Assembly: GCF_036507355.1 (NCBI RefSeq)
Contig: NZ_AP027877.1
Origin: Escherichia coli
GTDB taxonomy: Bacteria; Pseudomonadota; Gammaproteobacteria; Enterobacterales; Enterobacteriaceae
Direction: 5' to 3' (one strand)
Length of the DNA: 64,000 nucleotides
Position numbers: made by a program. Numbering within the stretch: position 1 is the first letter of the stretch; every line of letters begins with the position of its first letter. Positions 60,801-63,800 of the stretch are shown here, in pieces.

Positions 60801-63800
60801 TACCTTCGTCTCAAATTTAGATGTTGGATAGGTATTATATAATGATATAATGGCATTGTGTACTCTTACTACCTGTATTCACCAGTAAGAGTAGTAATCA
60901 GATCAGTATGTCCGTACTAAAATCTGATACCAGTATATACCGACAACAGTGACCAGGAATAGCCCTGCCTGTATGGCATCCCTGTACGGTCTGCTATAGA
61001 CCGTAGGACCAAATACAGGTATATATTATGAAAACATATCAAGGTACTCATGGAGTACATATCCTCGAATATCAGAGTAAGATTAATAAATTATTATGTT
61101 ATTTGACTAACCGGTATCCTAGGTTAATTGCTGTACGTGTCGATCTCCACTATCCCAAAATAGTTGATAACGGTGACAATATCTGTTGCTTCCCTAACCT
61201 GGAACCTGGGGTGATATCCCGGATGCGTGAATCCCTCAGAGCTAAGCTGGAGGCTGACCGTACCCGTAAGGTGCGTGAGGATAAACGCATTTACCGTTGC
61301 CCTTTATTTATTATATGGGCGAAAGAGTATTCTGAATCAGGTAAATGCCACTATCACATTTGCCTGTTGTTCAACAAAGACGCTTACTACCACCTCGGGG
61401 ATTACGATCAGGACGATAACCTTAGAGGGATGATCACAGGAGCCTGGTACAGCGCCCTGAGACTGGAGAGAGACGATCACCCTGGTCTGGTCCATTTTCC
61501 TGAAAACTGTAAGTATGTGCTAGACACCAATAGTACTGACTTCCAGCAGAACTACCAGGCGCTGTTAACCCGACTGGACTACCTGACCAAAGTTGAAAGC
61601 AAAGTGTTTGGTGAAGGAGACCGTAACTTCGGCTGTAGCCAAATCGAACTGTAAGTCGGTAATGGCCTTCTCAGTGAGAAGGCCTTAGTTGTATTGTTTC
61701 AAAAAATTACTAAAATGCAGTTTCGTTACGCAATTTTCTATAGATTACTGATAGTCATCAGCAAGTCCGCTACTAAATAACGTTTCTGCATTTTCAGCGG
61801 TAGCAACAGCATCCTGCACATCCTGCCGTTTCAAATCTAACACTCGTAATTTACCCTTTACTTCGGCGACAGATTCGATTCGCCTGTAAGCATCAGAATG
61901 ATGTTCGGCATATAGCGCAAGTCCTTCCAGTTTGGGCAAAGCATCAGCCAGATGTAGGCTATGTGGATCTACCAGGTCCACAACCATTTTGCCATCCTGT
62001 TCGGCAAAGAACAGGAAATCGGGACGAACAATCTTGTACTGTTCAGCTTCAACATAAGCGATTCCCAGTGACGACTGCCCTGTGTACTGTGGATTACGAT
62101 ACCAGAAAGCAAATCCTTCACGTTTGGTTTCGATCTCAAAAACCTTGGTTTCCCAATGGTTCAACAGAGCCGGATAGTTCCCGCTTTCGTCACACAACAA
62201 ATGGTGTTTCCAGACTGGAAGGTCAGCTTCCTTTTCACCTTCACGCACCCTGGTCATTTCAAACTTGTTCGCCGGCCTGACCAGATCCACATCCTGCGGT
62301 TCGGTACTCATTTCGACGATTTGACGATAGGCCTCTTTACGCTCATCTTTCAACGACTTGATTTGCGGTGTGTACTCGGCCAGCCACGCCTTCGCCAGTC
62401 TATCGGCCTCGCCATCGAAGTAATCCTGCCCCTCCATCACCAGCCCCATGCCAGCAACGGTAACACGAGCCTCCATGATTGCTTCCAGATATTCCTCTGC
62501 ATCCTCTTCTCGATCCGCAACCTTATCGGCCAGATATTCGACATAGGTACGTGAAACATCCGGGCTGAAAATTCGGTGATGCTGCCAACTTACTGATTTA
62601 GTGTATGATGGTGTTTTTAAGGTGCTTGCGTGGCTTCCATTTCCATCAGATGTCCTTCCTGCTCCGCTACTGAAGGCGTGGTGCGTAACGGCAAAAGCAC
62701 TGCCGGACATCAGCGCTATCTCTGCTCTCATTGCCGTAAAACATGGCAACTGCAGTTCACTTACACCGCCTCTCAGCCCGGTACGCACCAGAAAATCATT
62801 GATATGGCCATGAATGGCGTCGGATGTCGCGCCAGTGCACGCATTATGGGCGTTGGCCTCAACACGATTTTCCGCCATTTAAAAAACTCAGGCCGCAGTC
62901 GGTAACCTCGCGCATACAGCCGGGCAGTGATGTGATTGTCTGCGCTGAAATGGACGAACATTGGGGCTACGTCGGTGCTAAATCACGTCAGCGCTGGCTG
63001 TTTTACGCGTATGACAGGCTCCGGAAGACGGTTGTGGCGCACGTCTTCGGTGAACGCACTCTGGCCACACTGGAGCGTCTTCTGAGCCTGCTGTCGGCCT
63101 TTGAGGTCGTGGTATGGGACGGATGGCTGGCCGCTGTATGAATCACGCCTGAAGGGAAAGCTGCACGTTATCAGCAAGCGTTACACTCAGCGCATTGAGC
63201 GACATAATCTGAGACAACATCTGGCAAGGCTGGGACGGAAGTCACTGTCGTTCTCAAAATCGGTGGAGCTGCATGACAAGGTCATCGGGCATTATCTGAA
63301 CATAAAACACTATCAGTAAGTTAGAGTCATTACCGGGCCAAATCGATAAATCGCTCGATGAAGCCTCACTCAGCCTGCGCGCCGGTTCCCTGCGTACCAT
63401 TACGCACATCCTGCTGCCGCTGCTGCGCCCGGCGATCCTCTCGGCGCTGATTTACAGCTTTGTGCGCGCCATTACCACCGTCAGCGCCATTGTGTTCCTC
63501 GTCACGCCGGATACCCGCGTAGCGACGGCTTACATCCTCAACCGCGTGGAAGATGGCGAATACGGTGTAGCGATTGCCTACGGTTCCATTCTGATCGTGG
63601 TGATGCTGGCGATTATTTTCATCTTTGACTGGCTGATCGGTGAATCACGTACCTCCCGTTCAAAAGCCAAAAACCAGGCGTAATGGAGCGCACTATGACT
63701 CAGAAAAATTTCGTTGAACTGCGCAACGTCACTAAACGATTTGGCAGTAATACGGTAATCGACAATATCAACCTCACCATCCCGCAGGGGCAAATGGTGA

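What the first reader, a model, noticed from the sequence alone, without database searches (positions are those of the whole stretch)
61745..62574. yagJ is the tail of a larger gene truncated by IS1; the six-frame ORF is an IS1 read-through artefact
The 377-aa minus-strand ORF (61745-62878) runs from inside IS1, antisense to insA, into unique DNA. Only the part below 62575 can be native, so it is the 3' portion of a gene whose 5' end was removed by IS1. The native segment contains DFLFFAEQDGKMVVDLVD, which loosely resembles a PD-(D/E)xK nuclease core; that assignment is speculative, and the gene may have been a nuclease or defence-type gene.
Basis: partly seen in the sequence, partly recalled or inferred. 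Interest (0 to 1): 0.4.

Follow-up and report, generated by a model that had tools for sequence, protein, structure and literature searches.

The report
IS1-truncated restriction enzyme gene remnant (yagJ)
The yagJ open reading frame is the surviving last third of a Type III-like restriction enzyme gene whose front two thirds and partner methylase gene were lost next to an IS1 element: an ordinary pseudogene fragment, not an intact gene.

The parts
61745..62574 (-). 3' remnant of a Type III-like res gene (K-12 yagJ): codons 583-857 of 857, plus the stop codon
   Evidence: tblastn of the 857-aa K. quasipneumoniae homologue: residues 582-857, 96.7% identity, E 6e-175; alignment A2; translation
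62312..62574 (-). Broken piece of the helical middle domain (residues 583-669). The cut falls inside helix 570-584 of the full-length model
   Evidence: AlphaFold model of the full-length homologue, pLDDT 90.1, secondary-structure map
61748..62311 (-). Complete C-terminal nuclease-like (PF27151 'YagJ') domain. All family-invariant residues are intact: E723 (62150-62152), W739, R741, N742, P766-D767 (62018-62023), D784-P785-H786 (61961-61969), K796 (61931-61933)
62474..62476 (-). Internal Met615 codon used as the start of the annotated 243-aa K-12 YagJ
   Evidence: No sigma-70 promoter is assigned to yagJ in the insA3-yagJ spacer in PMC3946193
62575..62878 (-). IS1-derived, insA-antisense 5' part of the 377-aa ORF (a chimeric artefact)
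   Evidence: The extension is absent in K-12, where the frame closes inside IS1
62575..63334 (+). IS1 copy of 760 bp. It is a divergent and defective variant, with 2-bp and 6-bp deletions that break insB. There is no target-site duplication
   Evidence: Alignment A1; inverted repeats; best matches are 98% to 760-bp IS1 copies in CFT073 and ATCC 8739; flanks GGCTGAAAATTC / GGGCCAAATCGA
63335..63686 (+). afuB' remnant (3' end of an ABC permease gene) on the other side of IS1. It is unrelated to res, so the two IS1 flanks were not originally contiguous
   Evidence: RefSeq annotation of the identical junction in NCM3722 and 0H26: 'ABC transporter permease subunit, incomplete'; frame translation
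61664..61684 (.). GC-rich hairpin between the convergent yagK and yagJ 3' ends (terminator-like)

Best explanation
Window 61745-62574 (minus strand) is a pseudogene fragment. It is the last 275 codons (residues 583-857 of 857) of the res gene of a Type III-like restriction-modification system that was carried by the CP4-6-type island. In the intact system a roughly 710-aa Mod methyltransferase gene lies immediately upstream of res. Res consists of an N-terminal SF2 DEAH ATPase motor (residues 1-445), a helical middle domain (460-670) and a C-terminal restriction-endonuclease-fold domain (676-857) with the motif E...PD...(D/E)-P-H...K. By analogy with EcoP1I and EcoP15I (inferred, not shown), Mod would recognise and methylate the target site, the Res motor would use ATP to move along DNA, and the C-terminal domain would cut unmodified DNA. 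In this lineage an IS1-associated deletion removed mod, the motor and half of the middle domain. IS1 now abuts codon 583 on one side and a truncated afuB on the other. The leftover has no promoter or start of its own. The annotated 243-aa YagJ starts at a fortuitous internal Met615. The 377-aa ORF arises only because this window's divergent IS1 lacks in-frame stops on its antisense strand. The fragment is most likely non-functional.
For: Shown:
- The ORF and the IS1 boundary are as described.
- The window carries only residues 582-857 of the homologue and no mod remnant.
- Intact 857-aa homologues with 97% identity to the fragment exist on Klebsiella and Citrobacter plasmids and in E. coli AW1.7.
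- 2529 homologues were found (622 at E<1e-30). Most of the 150 listed are 820-880 aa and align over residues 1-856.
- Pfam ResIII scores 3.8e-12 and there is a weak Helicase_C hit (0.003, below Pfam's cutoff). DEAH (D176-H179) is invariant.
- mod lies directly upstream in Haematospirillum, Dietzia, Deinococcus and four metagenome contigs. These Mods match PADLOC MTase_III PDLC03645 over their full length.
- There are independent truncations of the same gene: IS1 at residue 439 in 0H26-type strains, with the same afuB' junction; an internal deletion of residues 43-326 in L007; and a 298-aa remnant in Providencia.
- There is no target-site duplication and the two flanks are unrelated.
- NCBI names some members of the yagJ cluster 'type III restriction endonuclease subunit R, partial'.
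Against: - Sequence similarity to classical Type III Res is weak. It is limited to the helicase motif V/VI region (PADLOC REase_III 33-41 bits; hhalign versus EcoP1I Res, probability 53% over 60 columns).
- The canonical catalytic Lys is replaced by an invariant His.
- No member of this family has been studied biochemically, as far as I could find.
- RNA-seq papers report yagJ transcripts: 5.7-fold induced by AZT, and a convergent overlap with yagK. The fragment is therefore not transcriptionally silent.
- Whether the loss was one IS1-promoted adjacent deletion or a recombination between two IS1 copies cannot be decided from the sequence.
Confidence: 0.93

Rival explanations
1. yagJ is an intact small gene (243 aa, starting at the internal Met) that merely resembles the C-terminus of larger proteins.
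For: RefSeq annotates a 243-aa 'protein YagJ' in K-12 strains. That cluster has 359 members.
Against: Homology continues without a break for 32 more codons upstream of that Met, right up to the IS1 end. It continues for a further 140 and 582 codons in 0H26-type and full-length alleles. The 243-aa members are mostly E. coli entries, and the K-12-type genomes all start at the same IS1 junction. No promoter is assigned to yagJ in the IS1-yagJ spacer. The apparent 'stand-alone' 338-aa relatives turned out to be frameshift splits, contig-end artefacts or deletion remnants.
Confidence: 0.02
2. The remnant has been exapted. It is transcribed from IS1 or by read-through, and it is translated (from Met615, or as the 377-aa chimera in this strain) into a free nuclease-fold domain that has some activity.
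For: The whole C-terminal domain survives with every invariant residue and folds confidently on its own in silico. Transcripts are reported, and they are induced by AZT.
Against: The Mod subunit that would target it to DNA and the ATPase motor are both missing. The middle domain is cut inside a helix. No promoter was detected for yagJ. Among E. coli genomes the K-12-type junction is essentially confined to K-12-lineage strains, so there has been no time for selection to act. The same gene decays in several independent ways elsewhere.
Confidence: 0.04
3. The ancestral gene belonged to another helicase-nuclease defence system (a Type I HsdR, Type ISP, or a non-R-M helicase-nuclease) rather than to a Type III R-M system.
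Against: The nuclease domain is C-terminal, as in Type III Res and unlike HsdR. The only conserved neighbour is a single Type III-class Mod gene immediately upstream. That gene overlaps res or lies within 3 nt of it. No hsdS-like gene is present. EcoP15I Res superposes over 348 residues at 3.1 A.
Confidence: 0.05

Closest known systems
Type III restriction-modification Res subunits (EcoP1I, EcoP15I; PDB 4ZCF chain C)
   Different: Res is shorter (857 versus 970 aa). Sequence similarity is limited to the helicase motifs. The middle domain is helical with a beta-hairpin. The nuclease motif is PD...(D/E)-P-H with an invariant His instead of (D/E)-x-K. In the window only the last 275 residues remain and there is no Mod.
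Pfam PF27151 'YagJ' family
   Same: Every homologue found carries this precomputed Pfam assignment over the C-terminal region. The K-12 fragment gives the family its name.
   Different: The family is named after a truncated fragment. In intact proteins it is the C-terminal part of an 857-aa Res subunit. The model is not in the local Pfam copy, so its boundaries could not be checked.
Hjc / RecU / TnsA-type PD-(D/E)xK nucleases
   Different: Sequence identity is 6-13%. There is an extra beta-hairpin between strands 1 and 2. His replaces Lys. The domain is fused to a motor protein rather than being a stand-alone resolvase.
IS1-truncated genes and IS1-promoted adjacent deletions in E. coli K-12 (the IS1B/IS1C region around argF)
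   Same: IS1 abuts two unrelated truncated genes (res' and afuB') with no target duplication. Other strains share the afuB' junction but have a different res junction.
   Different: This window has one IS1 where MG1655 has two flanking the argF segment. The IS1 here is a divergent 760-bp defective variant.

Membership tests
Type III R-M Res subunit (ancestral gene / protein family) | mod gene immediately upstream and co-oriented, forming a two-gene operon | tested here: met
   Intact mod-res pairs in Haematospirillum, Dietzia and Deinococcus plasmids. N6_N4_Mtase lies upstream in metagenome contigs L003, L005 and L015. Degraded mod remnants lie upstream in the enterobacterial, Xanthomonas and Halomonas loci. 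In the window itself no mod remains.
Type III R-M Res subunit (ancestral gene / protein family) | Partner is a Type III-class DNA methyltransferase | tested here: met
   PADLOC MTase_III PDLC03645 matches over the full length (positions 1-708 of 709, E=0 and 7e-265). Pfam N6_N4_Mtase is assigned.
Type III R-M Res subunit (ancestral gene / protein family) | N-terminal SF2 ATPase with ResIII/DEAH motifs | tested here: met
Type III R-M Res subunit (ancestral gene / protein family) | C-terminal PD-(D/E)xK endonuclease domain: fold | tested here: met
Type III R-M Res subunit (ancestral gene / protein family) | Canonical catalytic (D/E)-x-K triad | tested here: not met
   The motif is P766-D767 ... 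(D/E)784-P785-H786, with His in 110 of 110 sequences. A conserved K/R796 lies ten residues further on, in the next helix.
Type III R-M Res subunit (ancestral gene / protein family) | Sequence membership in curated Type III Res models | tested here: inconclusive
   PADLOC REase_III models score 33-41 bits, over the helicase motif region only. hhalign versus EcoP1I Res gives probability 53% over 60 columns. There are no NCBIfam hits. NCBI and JGI nevertheless name members 'type III restriction endonuclease subunit R'.
Type III R-M Res subunit (ancestral gene / protein family) | ATP-dependent cleavage that requires Mod and two inversely oriented unmodified sites | not testable with these tools
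   This is a biochemical property. No experimental paper on this family was found.
Type I HsdR | N-terminal nuclease domain, and hsdM plus hsdS partners | tested here: not met
   The nuclease-fold domain is C-terminal. The neighbour is a single Mod gene and there is no specificity gene. Only the motor resembles HsdR.
IS1 | About 768 bp, terminal inverted repeats of about 23 bp, insA-insB' reading frames | tested here: met
   Alignment to IS1B, inverted repeats and an insA ORF at 62630-62905. This copy is 760 bp, with insB broken by 2-bp and 6-bp deletions.
Intact K-12 'protein YagJ' (243 aa) as an autonomous gene | Homologues start at the same Met, with no upstream homology | tested here: not met
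   Homology extends upstream as far as the IS1 end, and to 857 aa elsewhere.

The most novel reading that the evidence does not exclude
The YagJ-type C-terminal domain may define a large lineage of Type III-like restriction enzymes (at least 622 clusters at 50% identity) that has not been studied biochemically. Its nuclease uses an invariant His in place of the canonical Lys (PD...(D/E)-P-H), which could mean different catalytic or regulatory behaviour. In addition, because the K-12 remnant retains this whole domain and is transcribed after DNA damage, it could still make an active free nuclease domain.
Probability: 0.08. Interest if true: 0.35.

Novelty: already known. Interest (0 to 1): 0.12.

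Why it matters
The main value is for annotation. One of the remaining K-12 y-genes of unknown function should be treated as a pseudogene fragment (res', Type III-like R subunit) and not as an orphan protein. Phenotype, expression or interaction data for 'YagJ' should be read with that in mind. It also shows that the CP4-6-type island once carried a restriction-modification system. That system has decayed independently several times in Enterobacterales (IS1 at two positions, an internal deletion, loss of mod), which illustrates how quickly a Res gene erodes once it has lost its partner. Finally, the Pfam family named after YagJ is in fact the C-terminal region of these enzymes (the nuclease-fold domain plus part of the helical middle domain).

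Tried and rejected
- The local Pfam, NCBIfam and PADLOC scans of the fragment gave nothing meaningful. PF27151 is newer than the local Pfam copy.
- Sequence searches of the PDB gave no hit for the C-terminal part, either with the single protein or with the family profile, which returned only P-loop-level hits.
- I considered that stand-alone YagJ-domain proteins of about 338 aa exist, because there are many hits of that length. I rejected this. L015 is a frameshift split of a full res gene that follows a mod gene. L016 is cut by the contig end. L006 is an internally deleted res. The 450-720-aa hits checked on long contigs (L003-L005) are likewise frameshift splits, probably long-read assembly errors.
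- hhalign against EcoP1I Res aligned only helicase motif VI. The two nuclease motifs could therefore not be aligned at sequence level.
- The afdb50 fold library was not available.
- The Pectobacterium 248-aa fragment P0119 could not be located on a contig.
- The literature search found no paper that discusses the origin of yagJ.
- I could not identify the source genome of the window. No complete E. coli genome has the same IS1 variant at this junction or the same arrangement between betA and intF.

Full report
**Observation.** The ORF list shows a 377-aa minus-strand ORF at 61745..62878. IS1 occupies 62575-63334. Alignment with the IS1 copies of K-12 NCM3722 and E. coli 0H26 places the left end (GGTGATGCTGCC...) at 62575 and the right end (...GTCATTACC) at 63334. 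The terminal inverted repeats are found at 62574-62597 and 63312-63335. insA is the plus-strand ORF 62630-62905. The first 101 codons of the 377-aa ORF (and the first base of codon 102) are therefore read from the antisense strand of IS1, and only 61745-62574 is unique DNA. The quoted peptide DFLFFAEQDGKMVVDLVD is present. In K-12 the same frame closes inside IS1, and the longest ORF there is the annotated 243-aa YagJ. The 377-aa ORF is thus a by-product of this window's divergent IS1 sequence.

**What the native segment is.** The window is the CP4-6 region of E. coli in reverse orientation: yagM, yagL, yagK, yagJ, IS1, afuB', fbpC. It is 99.6% identical to K-12 over 57683-62574. In strain 0H26 and many other E. 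coli, IS1 sits 427 bp further away, and the same frame is open for 415 codons.

A protein search with that longer fragment returned 384 homologues, all carrying the precomputed Pfam family PF27151 'YagJ'. Several of them were named 'type III restriction enzyme' by JGI. A tblastn search of plasmids found intact genes 97% identical to the fragment in Klebsiella and Citrobacter. These are annotated 'DEAD/DEAH box helicase family protein' or 'type III restriction endonuclease subunit R'. The gene is 857 codons long, both on the K. quasipneumoniae plasmid and in E. coli AW1.7.

tblastn of this protein against the whole window hits only 62575-61748, corresponding to residues 582-857 (96.7% identity, E 6e-175). 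The window therefore holds the last 32% of the gene, and 582 codons are missing.

An exhaustive HMMER search found 2529 homologues (622 at E<1e-30). Most of the 150 listed are 820-880 aa long and align across residues 1-856.

**Architecture and context of the intact gene.** Pfam detects ResIII (residues 3-185, E 3.8e-12) and a weak Helicase_C hit (366-408, E 0.003, below Pfam's cutoff). GKT and DEAH are invariant in an alignment of 110 full-length homologues.

The AlphaFold model of the 857-aa protein (pLDDT 90.1) shows four parts:
- two RecA-like domains (residues 1-445);
- a disordered linker (446-459);
- a helical middle domain with a beta-hairpin (460-670);
- a C-terminal alpha/beta domain (676-857).

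The IS1 junction at residue 583 falls inside helix 570-584 of the middle domain.

In Haematospirillum, Dietzia and Deinococcus plasmids the gene directly follows a methyltransferase gene of about 710 aa. The same holds in metagenome contigs: N6_N4_Mtase lies upstream in L003, L005 and L015, and an unannotated 699-aa ORF in L004. These Mods match PADLOC's Type III methyltransferase model PDLC03645 end to end. No specificity gene is present. The system is therefore organised like a Type III R-M system (mod-res, with the nuclease at the C-terminus of Res). Its Res is only distantly related in sequence to classical Res proteins: PADLOC REase_III scores 33-41 bits, over the helicase motifs only, and hhalign versus EcoP1I Res gives 53% probability over 60 columns.

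**The nuclease motif.** In the 110-sequence alignment the invariant C-terminal residues are E723, W739, R741, N742, P766, D767, P785 and H786. Nearly invariant are H706, (D/E)784, D792 and K/R796. All are intact in the window.

An AlphaFold model of the window's own residues 88-275 is very confident (pLDDT 96.3, pTM 0.90). Its order of elements is: a helix carrying E723, a strand, a hairpin, the PD strand, a strand ending in D784-P-H786, then a helix carrying K796.

The motif is a variant, PD...(D/E)-x-H, with His where Lys is expected. I could not check the three-dimensional clustering of these side chains, because model coordinates are not exposed. The catalytic role of these residues is inferred.

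**How the gene was lost.**
- The two IS1 flanks (GGCTGAAAATTC and GGGCCAAATCGA) are not a target duplication, and they belong to unrelated genes: res on one side and afuB on the other.
- 0H26-type strains have exactly the same IS1-afuB' junction, but their res junction is at residue 439. The pattern fits IS1-promoted adjacent deletions extending into res, or recombination between IS1 copies. MG1655 has two IS1 copies here, IS1B in afuB and IS1C next to yagJ.
- Of 5426 complete E. coli genomes, 391 carry this part of the gene. In 78 it is uninterrupted across the K-12 breakpoint. In nearly all the rest (about 313, mostly K-12 derivatives) the match begins at the identical base.
- Other independent decays of the same gene are an internal deletion of residues 43-326 (L007) and a 298-aa remnant next to an integrase in Providencia.
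- Even where res is intact in Enterobacterales, only the last ~190 codons of mod remain upstream. This suggests that a partnerless Res gene erodes.
- No mod remnant is present in the window.

**Function of the remnant.** It lacks the motor, Mod and half of the middle domain. The RpoD promoter atlas lists only the insA promoter in the IS1-yagJ spacer, and the consensus scan finds nothing convincing. Transcripts are reported: 5.7-fold induced by AZT, and a convergent overlap with yagK. I found no evidence of a protein product. The simplest reading is a dead fragment. I give about 4% to the idea that it has been exapted as a free nuclease domain.

**Rejected lead.** Many hits of about 338 aa suggested a natural stand-alone form. 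The loci that were inspected turned out to be frameshift splits, contig-end cuts or deletion remnants.

**Novelty.** Some NCBI records in the same 90% cluster as the 243-aa YagJ are already named 'type III restriction endonuclease subunit R, partial'. They are 278 and 300 aa long and include entries from a C600-derived strain. The full-length protein carries the same name in GenBank and UniRef. Pfam has a family named after YagJ. No paper in the searchable library discusses this point, and RefSeq K-12 genomes still annotate an intact 'protein YagJ'. The finding is a correct and useful reading of the annotation, but the thing itself is an ordinary IS-truncated gene of a known kind. The only mildly unusual feature is the invariant His in the nuclease motif of this large, uncharacterised Res lineage.

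**Verdict.** Confidence that this is a truncated Type III-like res remnant is about 0.93. Confidence that its C-terminal domain is a PD-(D/E)xK-fold nuclease is about 0.75. Interest is 0.12.

Noticed in passing
window 62575-63334: The IS1 copy is 760 bp instead of 768. It carries a 2-bp and a 6-bp deletion that break insB, plus about 45 substitutions relative to K-12 IS1B/C. Even so, both of its junctions (res' and afuB') are base-for-base those of K-12. Its closest relatives (98%) are 760-bp degenerate IS1 copies at other loci in CFT073 and ATCC 8739. Gene conversion between IS1 copies, or homogenisation of the K-12 copy, could explain this. I did not resolve it.
   Followed up: partly
window 55235-58400: Between betA and the CP4-6 genes lie an ipbA-like tyrosine invertase gene, a 344-bp IS1 fragment (about 57293-57636) and a truncated intF. 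No complete E. coli genome in the collection has this arrangement, so the source strain is K-12-like in CP4-6 but rearranged.
   Followed up: partly
L008 5085-5666; L009 3053-3409 and 6772-7014; L010 2552-4647; L011 2534-4659: Where res is intact in Klebsiella plasmids and E. coli AW1.7, only the last ~190 codons of mod survive upstream. In AW1.7 that remnant is further split by an ISPpu12 transposon. In the Xanthomonas and Halomonas plasmids mod is frameshifted. Intact res without a functional mod is therefore common.
   Followed up: partly
L007 719-2336 (metagenome contig; protein cluster P0001, 119 members): Another widespread E. coli-like allele of res has an internal deletion of residues 43-326. 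It sits beside an IS with an rve transposase and retains the last ~55 codons of mod upstream.
   Followed up: partly
L018/L019 5001-5897 (Providencia alcalifaciens): A 298-aa YagJ-domain remnant lies directly after a T6SS vasL-like gene and next to a phage-type integrase. It is an independent truncation of the same res family, at the edge of an integrative element.
   Followed up: no
L003, L004, L005, L015 (long metagenome contigs): On all four long contigs inspected, the res homologue is split into two overlapping ORFs, at a different position each time. This is most likely due to long-read assembly frameshifts. It explains why the first protein search listed no hit longer than 720 aa.
   Followed up: partly
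window 61190-61654 versus L008 8349-8804: The nucleotide match to the Klebsiella plasmid (91.5%) continues past the res stop codon into the 3' part of yagK. The res-yagK adjacency therefore belongs to the mobile element itself and is not specific to CP4-6.
   Followed up: no
L016 1093-5842: Downstream of one YagJ-domain gene fragment lies a QatABCD-like defence cluster (KAP NTPase, QatB, an unannotated 418-aa ORF, TatD DNase), so this is a defence-island context.
   Followed up: no
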